Source: Parachlamydiales bacterium (GTDB lineage: Bacteria; Chlamydiota; Chlamydiia; Chlamydiales; Parachlamydiaceae). Taken from it: 64,000 bases of DNA. Below the pieces are notes generated by a model. That model saw only the letters and a program-made list of their open reading frames with translations, made no database searches and was not told the DNA's origin. Location: the NCBI GenBank assembly GCA_963801825.1, contig CAWDGI010000002.1, positions 85,155 through 149,154 of the forward strand. Direction: 5' to 3'. A program made the translations under genes and the position numbers. This document shows positions 10,627-58,737 of this stretch, in pieces. Positions within the stretch are counted from its first letter, which is position 1, and the number at the start of each line of letters is the position of its first letter.

Positions 10627-12831
10627 ATGATGAGGGATAATCATATCCTCCGTTATTTGCCTCTATGGAACAAGTTTGCGGCTACATTGAACGCCTCACC
10701 TTTCACAACCCTGAAAACGGCTACACCGTGGCTCAAGCTGCAGCCCGCCAAGCGCTCCGGTGGCCTGATCTGCTTAGTCGGCTCCATGCCGGGGGTGCAG
10801 CCGGGAGAGACCATCCGTTGTTTTGGCCAATGGAAAAATCATCTCATCCACGGCCGTCAATTTGAAGTGGACCACTTTCACGTCGAGGCCCCCGCCGATA
10901 TCGTTGGGATTCGCAAATATCTCGGCTCCGGTTTAATCAAAGGAATTGGCCCCAAGTACGCCGGCCGCATCGTCGATCGCTTTGGCACCGATACACTCAA
11001 TATCATTGAATCCTCTCCCGAAAAACTCTTGGAAATTGCCGGACTCGGCCCCAAACGCATGGAAAAAATCAAAGCCTGCTGGCAACAGCAACGCTCCATC
11101 CGCGACGTGATGGTCTTTCTTCAATCCTACGGAGTCAGCCCTGCGTTTGCTCAAAAAATTTTCAAAGCCTATGGAGACCAAAGCATCAGCCGCGTGAAAG
11201 AAAATCCTTACTCCCTTGCCCGCGATATCTTCGGCATCGGGTTCAAAACCGCCGATGCCTTGGCGCAAAAAATGGGGATTGCCGCCGATTCTCCCCAGCG
11301 CATTGATGCAGGCATCGAATATCTCCTGTCCCAACTCTCCCAAGAAGGACATGTCTGCTATCCGACTGAAGAGTTCATCAAAGAAGGAGAAAAAACGCTA
11401 GCAGCGCTCCCCCCCTTTATTGAACAACGTCTCTTGGCTCTCCTACAAGAGGGACGCATTGAAATAAAAGAGATGCTCTCTGAAAATCGCCCCTGCCGCT
11501 TTATCTGGCTTAAATCCCTGTATATCGCTGAAATGGGGATTGCGCGGGAGCTACGCCGCCTCCGAAAAGGGGCCAGCCCTTTACGGTCGATTGATAGAGA
11601 ACGGGCTCTCCAATGGGTGCAAGAGCAGCTCAACATTCAGCTCGCGTCCCAACAAAAGCTAGCCGTGGCTTCGGCTGTCACGGGAAAACTGCAGATCATC
11701 ACCGGTGGACCGGGGACTGGGAAAAGTACGATTACCAATGCCATTTTAACGATTACGATTCAGTTAACAAAGAAGATCTATCTCGCTGCCCCCACTGGCC
11801 GAGCGGCCAAGCGGATGAGCGAAATCACGAAACATCCCGCATCGACCATTCATAGCTTGCTCGAGTTCAATTTTCGCTCCAATGGCTTCAAACGCAATCG
11901 GGAAAATCCGCTCGATTGTGATTTGATCATCATTGACGAAGCCAGTATGATTGACACCTTCCTCATGTACAGCCTCTTAAAAGCCCTTCCAGATTCTTGT
12001 CGGGTCGTTTTTGTGGGAGACGTTAACCAGCTTCCGAGTGTTGGACCCGGTAACGTCTTAAAGGATTTGATCTCTTCCCTCAGTCTTCCGACGACGACTC
12101 TGACAGAGATCTTTCGACAAGCGAGCGGCTCTCATATTATTCTCAATGCCCATCGCATTAACCGGGGGATGTTTCCTCAGTTGTATCATAGCCCTTCGAG
12201 CGATTTCTTCTTCATTGAGTGCAAAGAAAATCAGGATGTTTTAAATACCATTGTGAAATTAGTGGCGCAGCGCCTTCCCCATCGCTACGGATTTAAACCG
12301 ATTGAAGAGATCCAGGTGTTATCCCCTATGAAAAGAGGGATCATTGGAACAGAACATTTAAATCAAATGCTTCAGCAAGTGCTCAATCCTCAAGAAGCGG
12401 CCGTTTTTCGGGGAGGACAAAAATTTCAGGTGGGCGATAAAGTGATGCAAATTCGCAACGATTACAACCGAGAAGTGTTCAATGGAGATATTGGCTACAT
12501 CCAGTCGATTGATCCGGATGAGCAACAGCTTCTCGTTCGGTTTGACGAGCGAGAGATCGTCTATGATTACAACGATTTGGATGAACTGGTTTTGGCTTGG
12601 GCGATCTCAGTGCATAAGTCTCAAGGAGGGGAATATCCTTGCGTCGTCATGCCGGTGCACACCAGCCACTTTATGCTCTTGCATCGCAATCTCCTTTATA
12701 CGGGGATTACGCGGGGGAAAAAATTGGTGGTCCTTGTCGGCACAAAAAAGGCACTCGCCATTGCAGTGAAAAAAGATGATGTGCAAAAACGGTTTACAGG
12801 TCTTCAGCAAACTCTTATGGAACTTTTGTGA
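10627..12831 (+). CDS. recD2: RecD2-like SF1 DNA helicase (RecD/TraA family); N-terminus carries a frameshift near 10737
   Basis: Walker A GGPGTGKST, helicase motifs, and an HhH N-terminal region (GIRKYLGSGLIKGIGPK). The genuine N-terminus MEQVCGYIERLTFHNPENGYTVA is in another frame from 10665. It aligns to B. subtilis RecD2 (ERIIFHNEQNGFSV) and joins KLQPAKRSGGLICLVG after a 1-nt shift. Confidence 0.85.
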   Translation: MMRDNHILRYLPLWNKFAATLNASPFTTLKTATPWLKLQPAKRSGGLICLVGSMPGVQPGETIRCFGQWKNHLIHGRQFEVDHFHVEAPADIVGIRKYLGSGLIKGIGPKYAGRIVDRFGTDTLNIIESSPEKLLEIAGLGPKRMEKIKACWQQQRSIRDVMVFLQSYGVSPAFAQKIFKAYGDQSISRVKENPYSLARDIFGIGFKTADALAQKMGIAADSPQRIDAGIEYLLSQLSQEGHVCYPTEEFIKEGEKTLAALPPFIEQRLLALLQEGRIEIKEMLSENRPCRFIWLKSLYIAEMGIARELRRLRKGASPLRSIDRERALQWVQEQLNIQLASQQKLAVASAVTGKLQIITGGPGTGKSTITNAILTITIQLTKKIYLAAPTGRAAKRMSEITKHPASTIHSLLEFNFRSNGFKRNRENPLDCDLIIIDEASMIDTFLMYSLLKALPDSCRVVFVGDVNQLPSVGPGNVLKDLISSLSLPTTTLTEIFRQASGSHIILNAHRINRGMFPQLYHSPSSDFFFIECKENQDVLNTIVKLVAQRLPHRYGFKPIEEIQVLSPMKRGIIGTEHLNQMLQQVLNPQEAAVFRGGQKFQVGDKVMQIRNDYNREVFNGDIGYIQSIDPDEQQLLVRFDEREIVYDYNDLDELVLAWAISVHKSQGGEYPCVVMPVHTSHFMLLHRNLLYTGITRGKKLVVLVGTKKALAIAVKKDDVQKRFTGLQQTLMELL

Positions 12832-16440: not shown

Positions 16441-16760
16441 GGGCATGGTTCAATGTCAGGTAACAATTTTTTTCGTGTCCGAGTCCGAGTTCCGATCGTG
16501 TTCCGTTCTTCCGCGTTTCCAATCGGAACTCGGACTCGGACACGACCCTGTCATCTCGACTTTGTACATTTTAAGGGGTCGCTAAACGCAATCTTTTGAG
16601 CTATAACGCGTTAAAATTTTTTTGCCAACCCGAATGAGGGTTGGCGAAAAAATTTTAACGCGTTATAGCTCAAAATCTTGCATTTAGCGACCCCTTAAAA
16701 TGTACAAAGTCGAGGTCATGTTACCCAAAAACTCTATTTTTTCAACCATGCCAAAAAATT
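16441..16760. mobile_element. composite nested MITE: element B (as at 2436-2602) carrying an inserted element A hairpin
   Basis: The outer parts 16441-16554 and 16715-16760 match the 2436-2602 element. The inner 16555-16714 is a 160-bp perfect hairpin shared with 24395-24553 and 61908-62067. GTCAT is duplicated at the inner junctions. Confidence 0.75.
16555..16714. repeat. element A hairpin MITE copy 1 (about 75-bp arms, loop CCCGAATGAGGG)
   Basis: ctcgactttgtacattttaaggggtcgctaaacgcaatcttttgagctataacgcgttaaaattttttt gccaaccc…gggttggc… in perfect mirror symmetry. Confidence 0.85.
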
Positions 16761-17144: not shown

Positions 17145-17718
17145 CTAGCGATTAATTTTGTCTGTTCCAGCTATTGAATTATCTAGAATCAGCGCTCTAT
17201 CGGCAAGAGGCAGGTAGTGTTTGATTAGATTCTTTATTCCCGCAAAATAACGTCTTCTTATTGTATCTTCGGGGATATTGATGACCACCTTGCTTAACAC
17301 GATTTGCAACACGCTCAACAGCCAAATCAGGGCTAGGAAGCCATAAAAACATTAGATGAATTTCATAGTCTTTTGCTTGGGCTTCTTTAAGATGTTTGAT
17401 ATAATTTGTTCCAGCCCCCGTGGTTTCAAAAGCAAACGTCTTGTTTGCATCAAGAAGTTCCTTAAGTCTCTTTAGCATTAATTTACTAGCCGTTAAAGCC
17501 ATGCTTTCTGGATGTAATGGAGCAAGCCCTCGAGCAATCTCATCTGCATTAAGAAATTCATCTATCATTTCACTTGATATGAACGACATTGCTGTAGTTG
17601 TTTTACCTGCACCATTTGGTCCAGCAATCATAAAAATTCTCTTCGTCATCCGCTGTCCACCCGGCATAGGAAATTTGAAAATGCATTGCTTGAAATATGC
17701 CAAATATGGAATATTCAA
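17145..17718 (-). CDS. zeta-toxin/AAA_33-like P-loop kinase; C-terminus frameshifted at a CCCC run (~17263)
   Basis: P-loop FMIAGPNGAGKTT. After the shift the reading HQYPEDTIRRRYFAGIKNLIKHYLPLADRALILDNS matches the zeta-family C-terminus. Confidence 0.6.
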
Positions 17719-17787
17719 GCAATATGTTTATGACCGAGTTAAAATGCCTAAAAAAGAACGTAAAGAACAAAAAGAGACCAAATTTAA

Positions 17788-17830
17788 CGCCATGTGCGAC
17801 TTTTTTCCGTTCGAGTCCGGGCCCGAGACC
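17788..17830. repeat. partial copy (one terminal arm) of MITE element C
   Basis: CGCCATGTGCGACTTTTTTCCGTTCGAGTCCGGGCCCGAGACCG matches the 7488-7552 arm. Confidence 0.7.
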
Positions 17831-17955
17831 GCATCCTATTACCCATATCTTTTTAGGGTAGCTGATTATCAAAGACTTATGTTTTTCGAGACAATAACGT
17901 AAGTCTTTGATAATCAGCTACCCTAAAAAGATATGGGTAATGGGTAATAGGATGC
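17831..17955. repeat. element D: 125-bp hairpin palindrome (about 50-bp arms)
   Basis: gcatcctattacccatatctttttagggtagctgattatcaaagactta…taagtctttgataatcagctaccctaaaaagatatgggtaatgggtaataggatgc. Confidence 0.75.
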
Positions 17956-18003
17956 GCAAACGTTCACGGTGTTCCCTACATTTGTGGGTAACGATCAGCT
18001 TTT

Positions 18004-23546: not shown

Positions 23547-23600
23547 GGACTAAAACGAAATGTACAAAGTCGAGCTTTGGACTTTAAACTCTTCTCTTGT

Positions 23601-24357
23601 TCAGGCGTTTATCCCACCGTCTACAGTCAAATTCGCACCATTGATGTATGACGATTCTGGGCCGGCGAGAAAAGCGACAAGCGACGCTACCTCTTCCGCT
23701 TTCCCATACCGATCAAGTGGAACATGTGCTATCTGGACTGCGGCCCACTCGCCTGAGGCGGGATTAAGCTCTGTGTCGATTGGACCGGGCTGGACATTAT
23801 TGACCGTAATACCACGTGCTCCAAGCTCACGGGCCAGGCCTTGTGTGAACATTTTGATGGCTCCTTTGGTTGCAGAATAAGGGGCCATGGCAGGCATAAA
23901 CACTCGCTCGCCCACGCAAGAGCCAATCATGATAATTCGTCCGCCTGGCTTCATATGCTTAAGCGCCGCCTGGGTCGCCACAAAGGTACCCGCGAACGTT
24001 GACTGCAAAAACGAGGTCAAACTCGTCAAGAGTTGTCTCCTCAATATCTTCGGAATGGCTATACCGGCATTGTTCACCAGCACGTCAAGCCGACCGAATG
24101 AAGAGACCGTTTTGTCGACGCCGTTTTTCACTGCATTAGCGTCGGAAGCGTCCGCCTGAATCGCAATCGCTTTTCCGCCGGATTGTTCAATCGCCTTTGA
24201 CAACAGAGGCCGCGGCATCAGCACCTTTCGAGTATGTGAGTGCAACACTTGCCCCCTCGGCGGCCAGACGTTTTGCAATGGCGGCACCGATGCCGCGCGA
24301 GCCGCCGGTTACAAGAGCTACTTTGCCTTTTAGAGTATTTTCATTTTTGTTGTTCAT
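23601..24357 (-). CDS. short-chain dehydrogenase/reductase (SDR); N-terminal part in another frame (frameshift ~24195)
   Basis: Reverse translation from 24357 gives [50 protein letters not shown]. After a 1-nt shift it continues [16 protein letters not shown]…NNAGI…YSATKGA (catalytic YxxxK). Confidence 0.7.
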
Positions 24358-24394
24358 TTGTTTTACCCTCTTTTTGTGGAGTAGATTATTTTAC

Positions 24395-24553
24395 TGGACT
24401 TCGGACATTTTAAGGGGTCGCTAAACGCAAGATTTTGAGCTATAGCGCGTTAAAATTTTTTTACCAACCTTCATTTGGGTTGGTAAAAAAATTTTAACGC
24501 GCTATAGCTCAAAAGATTGCATTTATCGACCCCTTAAAATGTCCGAAGTCCAG
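24395..24553. repeat. element A hairpin MITE copy 2 with 7-bp target-site duplication TATTTTA
   Basis: ctggacttcggacattttaaggggtcgctaaacgcaag…cttaaaatgtccgaagtccag, flanked by tatttta on both sides. Confidence 0.85.
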
Positions 24554-24680
24554 TATTTTATAGTGTAAACAAAATTTACAGCTTTGGTTTCCCTTAAGCT
24601 AGACCATTCTTAGGGTGAACCCTAGAAAGTTTAACTTGCTTTTAGGTTCCGCAAGATTCACAACTTTGGTCTTTTAATGA

Positions 24681-30984: not shown

Positions 30985-31274
30985 TTTTACCTTCCTTGTT
31001 TAATCTGAAATATATTAAAAAAATCTCACAAAATCGAGAAAATTGAATTCCATGAGGACTTTTTATGGCTAAAAATTCCTCATGGAATTGAGAATATCGA
31101 TTTCTATGAGGAAATATGGTCTATTTTCTGCCTGCGCAATACAACTTAGGGGTTTGTTATACCAAGGGCCAAGGCGTGAAGCAAGATCATGCCCAGGGTG
31201 TATAGTCAAACAGTTATGAGGGAAAACGAAGAGAATTTTGAATAAAAAAAATACTCCAAGTGTAAGATGTTTTT

Positions 31275-41914: not shown

Positions 41915-42688
41915 ATGGACAATTCTTTTGTATTCTTTGGGACTCCCATTACAGCTTTCCATACTTGCTATCCTCGTACAGCTTTCCATACTTGCTATCC
42001 TCGCATTCCTGCGGGGCAGCCTCTTCCTTTTAAAGACGGAGAACTGATTTCCACGCAATTACCAAAAACTTTGGCAGCTGTTCGTGTGGTCGCTACAGTG
42101 ATTTTTTCCTCTTTAGCAGGGTTGGCTTTGAGCTCCACATTTTTATGCTGGCCTGTTGTGATCGCAGGCTTTGCCTTTGCAGGATGGACCATTTATTCGC
42201 ATCTCGCATCGGAAGATCCTTTAATCAAAGCCTTTCATAAAATCACAGGGGGCAAGGATAAATTTGCGGCATTACCAGAAGTTAACTGGGAGGTCACTCC
42301 TAATACAAAAACGGATGAGATCATTAAGATAATTAACTGGGATACATGGGAGTATAGAATCTCCAGAATGACTCTATCAGATGGAAGACGAGTCATTATT
42401 GTGAAAGGGCAAAGTCGTGGCCCGGTCGGGAAGCCTGCTCGCACCGCAAACACAATCTTTGCTTTCGTCGAAAAAACGAGCTTCAAAGATATCAGCAATG
42501 AGCCAGATTTTATTTTAAAAGCTCTAGGATATTTACACGCAATTTTCCGCCCTTGGCAAAGCAATACATTATATAACACTAGCTCTAGTTATTACGACAG
42601 TACACGTCCCAATACTTATAGGTGGGAGATTTGCTCTTCTATTCCAAGTCATATGGCCAATGAATTCGCTGCGCAGCTAGGCAGCTAA
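41915..42688 (+). CDS. Inc-like membrane protein (about 45-aa bilobed hydrophobic domain) with a 27-bp tandem duplication near the 5' end
   Basis: LAAVRVVATVIFSSLAGLALSSTFLCWPVVIAGFAFAGWTIY. The DNA repeat cagctttccatacttgctatcctcg occurs twice (41951-42004) and encodes TAFHTCYPR twice. Confidence 0.5.
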   Translation: MDNSFVFFGTPITAFHTCYPRTAFHTCYPRIPAGQPLPFKDGELISTQLPKTLAAVRVVATVIFSSLAGLALSSTFLCWPVVIAGFAFAGWTIYSHLASEDPLIKAFHKITGGKDKFAALPEVNWEVTPNTKTDEIIKIINWDTWEYRISRMTLSDGRRVIIVKGQSRGPVGKPARTANTIFAFVEKTSFKDISNEPDFILKALGYLHAIFRPWQSNTLYNTSSSYYDSTRPNTYRWEICSSIPSHMANEFAAQLGS

Positions 42689-56524: not shown

Positions 56525-56774
56525 GCACCGGGTGTAATTAAATCCGGGAGTTTACATTTCAGCGTTTAGGATATCAGGTTAACCGCGAAGGCCGCGAAGC
56601 TAGCGAAGAAAACGCGAAGCGCGAAGAAGGCTTTATAGACTATAGAAAAATCTTCGCGTTTTTCTTCGCTTGCTTCGCGGCCTTCGCGGTTAACCCTTAA
56701 GTCTAAAGCTTAACTGTGTATTAACCCTATCAGTTATTTGTAAACTCCCAGATTTAATTACACCCCTTTGCACC
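56525..56774. repeat. element E: nested palindromic repeat, outer 32-bp inverted repeats around an inner GCGAAG-rich 120-bp hairpin
   Basis: Outer arms GCACCGGGTGTAATTAAATCCGGGAGTTTACA and TGTAAACTCCCAGATTTAATTACACCCCTTTGCACC. Inner hairpin ggttaaccgcgaaggccgcgaag…cttcgcggccttcgcggttaacc. Confidence 0.75.
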
Positions 56775-56877: not shown

Positions 56878-57297
56878 ATGAATAATACAACGAGTGCAAC
56901 AGGCAATATTCTGACAACCTTTACGAGTCCAGACAGTAGTAAACGGATCGATGAATTGAAAAAATTGGCCTCAAAACCGGATACAGATTTTACAGTATCA
57001 TCGCCCAAAACGCAGAGGAATATATTCCACAAAACGAGTACGGAGCATGCTATTCATCGCCTTACAGCTGTGAGGACTGGACTTAGCGAATTAACAACCT
57101 CAAATCCAACAGTAGAGGCGGTTTCCTCTCCCAACTGTTTGACTATACACCCCCCAAAAAGGGTAGGCAAAATTGCACACAACATGCTGTGGTCCAAAAG
57201 ATTGCGTTTTATGCGCCCAAATTTAGTCCAAACTCCAGTTAAAATGTACAAAGTCGAGATCATAGACCGCAAGGTGAAGTGTGCAGAAGTTAATTAA
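56878..57297 (+). CDS. hypothetical S/T-rich protein; the 3' end runs into a fragment of element A
   Basis: 139-aa ORF. The terminal …KMYKVEII is encoded by aaatgtacaaagtcgag (repeat fragment 57237-57255). Confidence 0.35.
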   Translation: MNNTTSATGNILTTFTSPDSSKRIDELKKLASKPDTDFTVSSPKTQRNIFHKTSTEHAIHRLTAVRTGLSELTTSNPTVEAVSSPNCLTIHPPKRVGKIAHNMLWSKRLRFMRPNLVQTPVKMYKVEIIDRKVKCAEVN

Positions 57298-57439: not shown

Positions 57440-58684
57440 CTAAAGCTCTCCATACTTTTCACACTCTTTACCAACAATAAAAAAATGAAATTTTTGTTCT
57501 TCCCAGAAGTATCGAACGGGACGTATCACTTTCCATTCACAATTAGATGTTGTTGAAGGCTGGACAATTTTATACCCCTCTCCCTGTTTTTTATTACAAT
57601 CTTTAATCATGTCTTTCTGTAATTCAAAGAGTGTATTAATTTCTTTGTGTATATTCTTGTTCATCTCTAGATTTTTCTCATCGAGAAGCTCTTTTAAAAA
57701 AGTTTCTTGATTCTTTACCCATTGTTCTACCTCTCTTCTTTTCTTATGTACATGCTGTAACAAATATTCTATTCTTTCATCTGAGAATAAATTAACGAAG
57801 TCCTTGGGTAATGTACCTTTACGTATATTAAACATATCTAAGTCAAAACCGGCGCCCTCTAGAAATTTTTTCTTTATTCTATTTTTTATTTCTGTCACTG
57901 CTTGATGTTCCTGATTTGATGATTTGAGTATCAGGGGTAATAACGATTTTTCGTTGAAGGATAACCTACCTTCTCTAATGACAATGCTGGGAGATTGACC
58001 GCCAGGCGTCGGATTAATAACGAATTCAGGAAATTCTAGAATGAGGGTCTTCTCCTCAAATGGGGTATACTTTGAATGGATGTCGTGGGATTGAAGATCT
58101 CTAACAATCTCATCGATTTTGTGGTAAATATTCTGATAAGACTCGCAGAATCTGTATAGCGCTTCTTCATGTATTTGGTAAGCTTGGGCTATTTTGTCTA
58201 TAAATTCTATTGTATTCCCTTTTATTGTTAATGCTACTTTAAAATTATCTCTAAAAAATGGAGTTTGGTATAAGCTATTCCTCTGGGCTAGAGATAAATC
58301 TCTTGCATATGCTTCAAAATCGCTTCCGGGATTTTTAGGATTCCATGGAACGACTGCGCTTTCAAAGCTATCTATGTGACTTTGCGCAGCAGCAACCGGA
58401 AAAATCTTAAATAAACTTGAAAGGCGAGTATCTAAGAAGTTTAAACTATTGCTAATAATACGGATCAATCCAGAAGAATAATAAATTGTGTTATCAATAC
58501 AAGGACGTAATATTTGTTCTCCTACAATGTAAGCAGGGCTTTTCGGGATAAAGGAGATTGTTCCGTCTGAATGATAGACAATTCTGTTTTTTTCTGAGCT
58601 ATTTGACAAGAAGAATGAATCCATCTGAAAATTTGCTTCTTGGATGGTTCTCGGGGTAATTGTAGCTGATGTCAAATCGTTCAT
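57440..58684 (-). CDS. tandem paralog family member 1 (unknown function, about 415 aa)
   Basis: About 80% identical to the next two genes along its whole length. No recognised domain. Confidence 0.6.
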   Translation of the reverse strand: MNDLTSATITPRTIQEANFQMDSFFLSNSSEKNRIVYHSDGTISFIPKSPAYIVGEQILRPCIDNTIYYSSGLIRIISNSLNFLDTRLSSLFKIFPVAAAQSHIDSFESAVVPWNPKNPGSDFEAYARDLSLAQRNSLYQTPFFRDNFKVALTIKGNTIEFIDKIAQAYQIHEEALYRFCESYQNIYHKIDEIVRDLQSHDIHSKYTPFEEKTLILEFPEFVINPTPGGQSPSIVIREGRLSFNEKSLLPLILKSSNQEHQAVTEIKNRIKKKFLEGAGFDLDMFNIRKGTLPKDFVNLFSDERIEYLLQHVHKKRREVEQWVKNQETFLKELLDEKNLEMNKNIHKEINTLFELQKDMIKDCNKKQGEGYKIVQPSTTSNCEWKVIRPVRYFWEEQKFHFFIVGKECEKYGEL

Positions 58685-58737
58685 AAATCAACCTTTTGAA
58701 AAAAATGAGGGTCAATCTCCGTATTAATGATAAATGA

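What the first reader, a model, noticed from the sequence alone, without database searches (positions are those of the whole stretch)
16441..16760. Nested MITE: element A inserted inside element B, with a solo element B at 2436-2602
The sequence 16441-16554 plus 16715-16760 is the same element as 2436-2602, with GGCATGGTTCAA-type termini and an internal CGTGTCCGAGTCCGAGTTCCGATCG hairpin. In the 16.4-kb copy, element A sits inside it with GTCAT duplicated at the junctions.

Element-in-element nesting shows the order of insertion. It also shows that at least two independent non-autonomous families were active in this genome.
Basis: seen in the sequence. Interest (0 to 1): 0.6.

Follow-up and report, generated by a model that had tools for sequence, protein, structure and literature searches.

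The report
Nested miniature transposons in a chlamydia relative
A 160-base palindromic mobile element has jumped into a second small mobile-looking repeat just after the dapA gene of an uncultured Parachlamydiaceae bacterium; this is a clean but ordinary case of one selfish DNA element nested in another.

Summary
Element B occurs twice: 2436-2602 (solo) and, in the opposite orientation, 16442-16752. The second copy is split by element A (16555-16714). A is 160 bp, almost a perfect palindrome, and has stop codons in all six frames.

- **Insertion signature:** A is flanked by a direct GTCAT repeat, and the solo B carries one GTCAT at exactly that position.
- **A is mobile:** two more full A copies (24394-24553, 61908-62067) each have a perfect 7-bp target-site duplication. 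There are also a half copy and a 17-nt end remnant.
- **B is a real family:** spurious ORF translations show five more copies in the same genome, so at least seven in all. All five have the A target site intact.
- **Gaps:** B shows no target-site duplication in the two copies I could read. No parent transposase was found for either family. The A/B junctions have no independent assembly support.

The host is a Parachlamydiaceae bacterium whose genome I could not retrieve. The window holds at least three more MITE-like (miniature transposon-like) families. Neither A nor B matched anything in the other public collections searched.

Verdict: real nested MITEs, new families of a well-known kind, of modest interest.

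The parts
16442..16554 (.). Element B, copy B2, left part. It has the terminal repeat GGCATGGTTCAA, a T7 run and a GC-rich hexamer-repeat hairpin, and ends with the left GTCAT.
   Evidence: An independent Logan contig, L001, confirms the dapA-to-B junction up to 16470.
16473..16545 (.). Internal hairpin of B2: a perfect 24-bp stem (16473-16496 with 16522-16545) and a 25-nt loop. The stem is built from GTCCGA-like hexamers.
16550..16554 (.). Left copy of the 5-bp target-site duplication GTCAT.
16555..16714 (.). Element A, copy A1. It is a 160-bp near-perfect palindrome with termini CTCGACTTTGTACA...TGTACAAAGTCGAG and stops in all six frames.
16715..16719 (.). Right copy of the target-site duplication GTCAT.
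16720..16752 (.). Element B, copy B2, right part, ending in the inverted terminal repeat TTCAACCATGCC.
   Evidence: (I10).
2436..2602 (.). Element B, solo copy B1 (167 bp), in inverted orientation to B2. It lies between the stop of ORF 2081-2428 and the glyQS start at 2674. Its uninterrupted A target (ATGAC, which is GTCAT on the other strand) is at 2469-2473.
24394..24553 (.). Element A, copy A2, with a perfect 7-bp duplication TATTTTA at 24387-24393 and 24554-24560.
61908..62067 (.). Element A, copy A3, with a perfect 7-bp duplication CTGTATG at 61901-61907 and 62068-62074.
57195..57258 (.). Degenerate half copy (right arm) of an A1-type element. The terminal 20 nt are identical to A1.
   Evidence: (D15, I18).
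23558..23574 (.). 17-nt remnant of an A1-type right end (AAATGTACAAAGTCGAG).
   Evidence: E=5e-4.

Best explanation
Two unrelated families of non-autonomous DNA transposon derivatives (MITEs) are present, and one has inserted into the other.

**Shown.**
- B (about 146-167 bp) has 12-bp terminal inverted repeats, a T-run and a GC-rich hairpin of variable GTCCGA-type hexamers. It was already sitting 13 nt downstream of the dapA stop codon.
- A (160 bp) is a fold-back palindrome with no coding capacity. It then inserted into B's subterminal region.
- The insertion duplicated 5 bp (GTCAT).
- A is multi-copy and has target-site duplications at all three full copies.
- B is multi-copy, with intact target sites in its other copies.

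**Inferred.**
- The insertion used a staggered cut made by a transposase supplied in trans from a full-length insertion sequence elsewhere in the genome.
- B is also moved by a transposase.
- The elements are selfish. They sit in a neutral 'junkyard' that also holds a degraded zeta-toxin gene and other element fragments. They have no host function beyond incidental hairpin effects on the 3' end of the dapA transcript.
For: **The nest**
- Removing A plus one GTCAT restores a B that aligns end to end with the solo copy.

**A is a mobile family**
- Three full copies are 90-97.5% identical.
- The direct repeats are 5, 7 and 7 bp and differ in sequence, so insertion is not site-specific.
- All six frames contain stops.
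- A half copy and an end remnant are also present.

**B is a dispersed family**
- A profile search of 1.84 billion representative proteins found spurious ORFs that begin at the ATG inside B's left end.
- P0127 and P0129 lie on the same 571,531-bp contig as the window. P0121, P0131 and P0150 lie on a 1,549,209-bp contig. Each has a different flank after ...LNHA.
- All five have the uninterrupted CHVTQ target.

**Context**
- The host is Parachlamydiaceae: DapA is 66% identical to the Candidatus Protochlamydia phocaeensis protein.
- A relative at 78% nucleotide identity has dapL starting 3 nt after dapA and no B there.
- Other families in the window have clean duplications: C with CTATTT and F with CTTTGCACC.
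- The features match the textbook MITE definition of terminal repeats, direct repeats, no transposase and a foldable sequence (Delihas 2011, PMC3184786).
Against: - No target-site duplication is visible at either readable B copy.
- No transposase with matching terminal repeats was found. The only transposase in the window is a 3' fragment of an IS630-family gene (Pfam PF13358). From general knowledge, that family duplicates TA, not 5-7 bp.
- A1's duplication is 5 bp, while A2 and A3 have 7 bp.
- The A/B junctions are not confirmed by a second assembly. Logan contigs stop inside the repeats, and look-ups for contigs covering the right side failed.
- Five mirrored position pairs in A changed in a compensatory way between subfamilies. 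This hints at a constraint on the hairpin that pure parasitism does not require.
Confidence: 0.82

Rival explanations
1. A is a genuine MITE, but B is not moved by a transposase. On this reading B is a palindromic repeat that makes no target-site duplication, such as a REP/BIME-like unit or the derivative of a single-strand (HUH) transposon. It would be spread by another mechanism or by recombination, and it simply served as a landing site for A.
For: - Neither readable B copy has a flanking direct repeat.
- B is dominated by a strong internal hairpin. The RNA fold of B1 has z = -8, and the DNA fold of the whole nest (B2 plus A) has z = -23.
- B shares a module (T-run followed by CGTKYCGAGTCCG) with element C.
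Against: - B has clear 12-bp terminal inverted repeats with sharp boundaries.
- At 146-167 bp it is much larger than the 20-40 bp REPs, and it lacks the GTAG/CGTC head named in PMC3733652.
- Element C has the same architecture and does have a clean 6-bp duplication, CTATTT.
- A short duplication in two somewhat diverged copies could have decayed.
Confidence: 0.13
2. The A-containing arrangement is ancestral. On this reading the solo B arose by precise deletion of A through recombination between the two GTCAT repeats.
For: Short direct repeats can mediate precise excision. Only one nested copy and one solo copy can be read as DNA.
Against: - Five additional B copies all have the uninterrupted site.
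- A exists independently at loci unrelated to B, with its own duplications.
Confidence: 0.02
3. The 16.4-kb arrangement is a chimeric misassembly of repeat-containing reads.
For: - The window assembly has at least one 1-nt indel relative to an Illumina-derived contig.
- It shows a glyQS gene split into four ORFs.
- Short-read contigs break inside these repeats.
Against: - A chimeric join would not create an exact 5-bp duplication with B resuming at precisely the next base.
- Both flanks of the region agree 99.99-100% with independent contigs L001 and L009.
- The A1 termini differ from those of A2 and A3, so A1 is not a collapsed copy of them.
Confidence: 0.03

Closest known systems
Bacterial MITEs in general (for example Nezha and Chunjie, as reviewed by Delihas 2011, PMC3184786)
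   Same: - Small size and terminal inverted repeats.
- Flanking direct repeats (for A).
- No transposase gene.
- The sequence folds into a long hairpin.
- Multiple dispersed copies in intergenic DNA.
   Different: - There is no sequence similarity to anything found in the collections searched.
- The host is a Parachlamydiaceae bacterium. I found no description of MITEs in that family in the paper library.
- The parent insertion sequence is unknown.
MITECca01 of the Cardinium endosymbiont (IS982-derived; PMC9769881)
   Same: - A lineage-specific MITE that spread in an intracellular bacterium.
- It is found mainly in intergenic regions and inserted into other mobile elements.
   Different: - There the parent IS982-family element is identified and intact. 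Here no parent is known.
- The sequences are unrelated.
Fold-back / fully palindromic MITEs
   Same: A is palindromic over nearly its whole length (74/80 mirrored pairs), as if both arms derive from one insertion-sequence end.
   Different: - All three A copies share the same asymmetric positions (38/123 and 39/122).
- Five other mirrored pairs differ between copies by compensatory double changes.
- So symmetry was maintained after the arms formed.
REP/BIME elements
   Same: Extragenic, hairpin-forming and multi-copy.
   Different: - B and A are 4-8 times longer.
- They have terminal inverted repeats.
- A makes target-site duplications.
- There is no GTAG/CGTC head.

Membership tests
MITE (element A) | Small size (under about 600 bp) and no transposase or coding capacity | tested here: met
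   A is 160 bp with stops in all six frames.
MITE (element A) | Terminal inverted repeats | tested here: met
   The arms are 77 nt and 95% complementary. The termini are CTSGACTTYGKACA.
MITE (element A) | Flanking target-site duplications that differ between copies | tested here: met
   The duplications are GTCAT (5 bp), TATTTTA (7 bp) and CTGTATG (7 bp). B1 provides the empty site for the first.
MITE (element A) | Multiple dispersed copies | tested here: met
   There are three full copies, a half copy and an end remnant in 64 kb.
MITE (element A) | A related autonomous insertion sequence with the same terminal repeats | not testable with these tools
   - The source genome could not be retrieved.
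- Collection scans found nothing related.
- The only transposase in the window is an IS630-family fragment.
MITE (element B) | Small size and terminal inverted repeats | tested here: met
   B is 146-167 bp. The ends are GGCATGGTTCAA with its inverted copy, 11/12 matching.
MITE (element B) | Flanking target-site duplication | tested here: not met
   Neither of the two readable copies has a direct repeat at its ends. With only two copies, decay of a short duplication cannot be excluded.
MITE (element B) | Multiple dispersed copies with unrelated flanks | tested here: met
   There are two copies in the window and five more seen as spurious ORF translations on the 571,531-bp and 1,549,209-bp contigs.
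MITE (element B) | No real coding capacity | tested here: inconclusive
   - Several frames are open.
- The ORFs run into unrelated flanks and vary in hexamer-unit number, so they look spurious.
IS630/Tc1-mariner-derived MITE | TA target-site duplication | tested here: not met
   A has 5-7-bp duplications and B has none. That IS630-family elements duplicate TA is from general knowledge.
REP / BIME | A 20-40-bp imperfect palindrome with a GTAG or CGTC head (PMC3733652) | tested here: not met
   The elements are 146-167 bp and 160 bp. There is no such tetranucleotide head at the hairpin base.
Known structured RNA family (Rfam) | A match at the family's gathering score | tested here: not met
   There were no gathering-level hits in the window. 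The only other hits were sub-threshold matches to generic miRNA-hairpin models.

The most novel reading that the evidence does not exclude
A, and the B/C/F class with internal GC-rich short-tandem-repeat hairpins, may not be passive leftovers of insertion sequences. Their palindromic symmetry may be actively maintained.

- A shows five compensatory mirrored double changes against about six unpaired changes, even though all copies share the same ancestral asymmetries.
- This would point to a single-stranded hairpin transposition or repair intermediate, or to selection on a structured RNA or DNA function.
- B and C may also share an exchangeable hairpin module.
Probability: 0.1. Interest if true: 0.55.

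Novelty: new member of a known kind. Interest (0 to 1): 0.28.

Why it matters
- **Timing:** the nest gives a clean relative ordering of two transposition events.
- **Biology:** it shows that an uncultured Parachlamydiaceae genome carries several lineage-specific MITE families, at least five in 64 kb. Mobile-element biology is little described for this group.
- **Assembly:** short-read contigs end inside these elements.
- **Annotation:** B supplies false start codons and N-terminal extensions to at least five predicted proteins.
- **Genome rearrangement:** the elements mark a synteny breakpoint downstream of dapA.

None of this changes what is understood about MITEs in general.

Tried and rejected
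**Collection scans for more copies**
- Scan of genome contigs with a B 19-mer gave three chance hits in unrelated MAGs. The source genome is absent or masked.
- Scan of metagenome contigs with a B 23-mer gave nothing. An A 21-mer gave two hits with no similarity beyond the probe.
- Scans of viral contigs for A and B gave nothing.
- blastn of the nest against PLSDB plasmids gave nothing.

**Known RNA families**
- Rfam at gathering score gave nothing. At E≤1 there were only generic miRNA-hairpin hits far below threshold.

**Recovering B copies through proteins**
- A six-frame concatenated B query found only one protein, P0121. Low-complexity words probably saturated the candidate list.
- The DNA for P0121 and P0129 was not on record.

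**Independent confirmation of the right-hand A/B junction**
- Four ORF look-ups from the right side all failed.

**Candidate parent transposase**
- The IS630-family fragment at the window end was considered as A's parent, because CTCGACTTTG occurs at 63538. It was rejected: similarity stops after 10 nt, and that family makes TA duplications.

**Other ideas dropped**
- A composite-transposon reading of the GC-rich SDR pseudogene lying between an A remnant and A2 was rejected, because A2 has its own 7-bp duplication.
- An intrinsic-terminator role for the hairpins was not supported. The T-runs precede the stems rather than follow them, and the scan found no terminator-like site in the nest.

Full report
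**1. Observation**

Reading both sites confirms the description.
- On the + strand, 16442-16554 runs GGCATGGTTCAATGTCAGGTAACA, then T7, then a GC-rich hairpin, then ...CCCTGTCAT.
- It is followed by a 160-bp block, 16555-16714 (CTCGACTTTGTACATTTTAAGGGG...CCCCTTAAAATGTACAAAGTCGAG).
- After that comes GTCATGTTACCCAAAAACTCTATTTTTTCAACCATGCC, ending at 16752.

Deleting 16555-16719 gives a 146-bp sequence that aligns end to end with the reverse complement of 2436-2602.
- blastn-short gives 90% identity over 114 nt, E=1e-35.
- The two copies also differ by a 9-nt indel and a 12-nt indel, the latter within the hexamer-repeat tract.
- The solo copy has one GTCAT (2469-2473, read on the other strand) exactly where the nested copy has GTCAT-[A]-GTCAT.

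Other details also check out.
- The terminal repeat GGCATGGTTCAA is present at both ends of both copies, with one mismatch each.
- The hairpin in the nested copy is a perfect 24-bp stem.
- A has 77-nt arms that are 95% complementary and 74/80 mirrored pairs.

**2. Element A is a mobile, non-coding family**

A 28-nt probe of the A terminus has 0.00 matches expected by chance. It finds two more full copies, at 24394-24553 and 61908-62067.

Their flanks carry perfect 7-bp direct repeats.
- TATTTTA flanks the copy at 24394-24553.
- CTGTATG flanks the copy at 61908-62067.
- Together with GTCAT at the nest, all three full copies have target-site duplications of different sequence. This is the signature of staggered-cut transposition, not of site-specific recombination.

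A has stops in all six frames. A degenerate half copy (57195-57258) and a 17-nt end remnant (23558-23574) are also present.

The copies fall into two subtypes.
- A1 and the two remnants have termini CTCGACTTTGTACA.
- A2 and A3 have CTGGACTTCGGACA.

The three terminal differences, and two internal ones (positions 52/109 and 70/91), are mirrored on both arms as compensatory double changes. All copies nevertheless share the same asymmetric positions, 38/123 and 39/122.
- The terminal covariation is what one expects if both ends must fit one transposase.
- The internal covariation is unexplained, and it rests on only three copies.

**3. Element B is a dispersed family of this genome**

Only two copies lie in the window, and DNA scans of the public collections found no others.

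B contains an ATG in its left end (CAATGTCAGG) and an open frame. I therefore searched for spurious proteins that begin inside it.
- A six-frame query found P0121, whose first 53 residues, MSGNNFFRVRVRVRVRVPIVF...SCHVTQKLYFLNHA, are a translated B.
- A profile search of 1.84 billion representative proteins added P0127, P0129 and P0131. A cluster look-up added P0150.
- The cluster look-ups place P0127 and P0129 on a 571,531-bp contig, the same length as the contig carrying this window's DapA. P0121, P0131 and P0150 are on a 1,549,209-bp contig.

These copies establish several points.
- B has at least seven copies.
- Each of the five extra copies continues into a different sequence after ...AACCATGCC, which fixes the element boundary.
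- All five have the intact CHVTQ target, so the uninterrupted form is the norm and the A-bearing copy is derived.
- The number of hexamer units varies from 3 to 5 on each arm.

Neither readable copy shows a flanking direct repeat. B's mode of movement is therefore inferred, not shown.

**4. Context**

- The organism is a member of the Parachlamydiaceae. Its DapA is 82% identical to the best hit, an unnamed Logan protein, and 66% identical to the Candidatus Protochlamydia phocaeensis protein.
- The window's G+C content is 42.6%.
- The nest begins 13 nt after the dapA stop codon.
- To its right lie a fragmented zeta-toxin-like gene (17197-17718; Pfam AAA_33 and Zeta_toxin), then a truncated copy of another element, C, abutted by a 127-bp palindrome, D.
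- In a relative at 78% nucleotide identity, dapL follows dapA after 3 nt. dapL is absent from this window. The nest therefore lies at a synteny breakpoint in apparently neutral DNA.

**5. Other families in the window**

- C (7485-7710) has a 6-bp duplication, CTATTT.
- F (56530-56765) has a 9-bp duplication, CTTTGCACC.
- B and C share the start of their hairpin module, a T-run followed by CGTKYCGAGTCCG. The alignment score is 29 against 17 ± 2.3 for shuffles.
- F has an analogous CGCGAAG-repeat hairpin.

**6. Assembly quality**

Two Logan contigs from run ERR12035940 match the window closely.
- One matches at 99.99% and the other at 100%.
- Both end inside repeats, at 16470 within B and at 17900 within D.
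- They confirm the dapA-to-B junction but not the A/B junctions.
- The single difference is a 1-nt indel at 10736, so the window assembly has small indel errors.
- This probably also explains the glyQS gene being split into four ORFs.

A precise 5-bp duplication with exact continuity of B is not what a chimeric join would give.

**7. Comparison with known elements, and novelty**

- A meets every sequence-level criterion in the standard MITE definition (PMC3184786).
- B meets all of them except the target-site duplication.
- MITEs inserting into other mobile elements in intracellular bacteria are documented, for example the Cardinium MITE (PMC9769881).
- I found no paper describing MITEs in Parachlamydiaceae.
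- I found no sequence relative of A or B outside this genome.
- Rfam gave nothing meaningful.

These are new families of a well-known kind.

**8. Verdict**

Interest is modest. The main loose ends are:
- the missing duplication for B;
- the unknown parent transposases;
- the 5-bp against 7-bp duplications for A;
- the compensatory symmetry of A.

Noticed in passing
window 7485-7710 (element C); partial copy 17787-17831: A 226-bp MITE-like element with 84-nt inverted arms, termini ACGCCATGTGCGAC, a GC-rich hexamer-repeat hairpin and a 6-bp target-site duplication, CTATTT. On the minus strand it sits between two small ORFs. I guess these are a toxin-antitoxin-like pair; this was not tested.
   Followed up: partly
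window 17830-17956 (element D): A 127-bp near-perfect palindrome that directly abuts a truncated left half of element C. This is a second case of one small element disrupting another, about 1 kb from the A-in-B nest. Only one copy is in the window, and no duplication is visible.
   Followed up: partly
window 56530-56765 (element F): A 236-bp MITE-like element with 27-nt terminal inverted repeats (GGGTGTAATTAAATCC...), an internal hairpin made of CGCGAAG repeats, and a perfect 9-bp target-site duplication, CTTTGCACC.
   Followed up: partly
window 7172-7264 (element E): A solitary 93-bp palindrome with 44-nt arms that are 95% complementary. There is one copy in the window, and its nature is undetermined.
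   Followed up: no
window 2674-5728: The fused glycyl-tRNA synthetase gene (glyQS) is split into four consecutive ORFs. An independent Illumina-derived contig shows a 1-nt indel against the window elsewhere, at 10736. The breaks are therefore probably assembly indel errors rather than a pseudogene.
   Followed up: partly
proteins P0121, P0127, P0129, P0131, P0150 (same genome, outside the window): Element B supplies a false ATG and a roughly 50-residue N-terminal extension, or a whole spurious ORF (MSGNNFFRVRV...), to at least five predicted proteins in the public annotation of this genome.
   Followed up: yes
window 63757-64000 (minus strand); also 63538-63547: The 3' end of an IS630-family (PF13358) transposase gene runs off the window. 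About 210 nt beyond its stop lies CTCGACTTTG, identical to the first 10 nt of A1, with no similarity after that.
   Followed up: partly
window 23601-24357 (minus strand): A GC-rich (50-55%) short-chain dehydrogenase gene, apparently frameshifted, lies between an A-end remnant (23558-23574) and the full copy A2 (24394-24553). It looks foreign to the 42.6% G+C background.
   Followed up: partly
window 57440-61353 (minus strand): Three tandem paralogous genes of about 1.3 kb (414 aa, 420 aa, and 342+77 aa, the third interrupted), with 64-91% nucleotide identity between segments. They were not scanned against Pfam.
   Followed up: no
window 31196-31227 and 57121-57152: A 32-nt inverted pair, GGGTGTATAGTCAAACAGTT..., 26 kb apart. 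The two may be solo ends of yet another element family, since they start like F's terminal repeat (GGGTGTA).
   Followed up: no
window 61901-62080: At copy A3 the right flank reads CTGTATG followed by CTGGAC, repeating both the duplication and the first 6 nt of the element. The direct repeat is therefore effectively 13 nt. This is either chance or a hint of preference for sites resembling the element's own end.
   Followed up: no
window 41950-42003; window 6310-6448: A perfect 27-nt tandem duplication lies inside ORF 41915-42688. Diverged 54-nt tandem repeats lie inside the protein-kinase gene 5746-7071.
   Followed up: no
window 62376-63446 (minus strand): A 356-aa protein with no Pfam hit has an N-terminal LPNEVIYRIFNFIL motif. 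From general knowledge this resembles an F-box, as seen in effectors of amoeba-associated chlamydiae.
   Followed up: no
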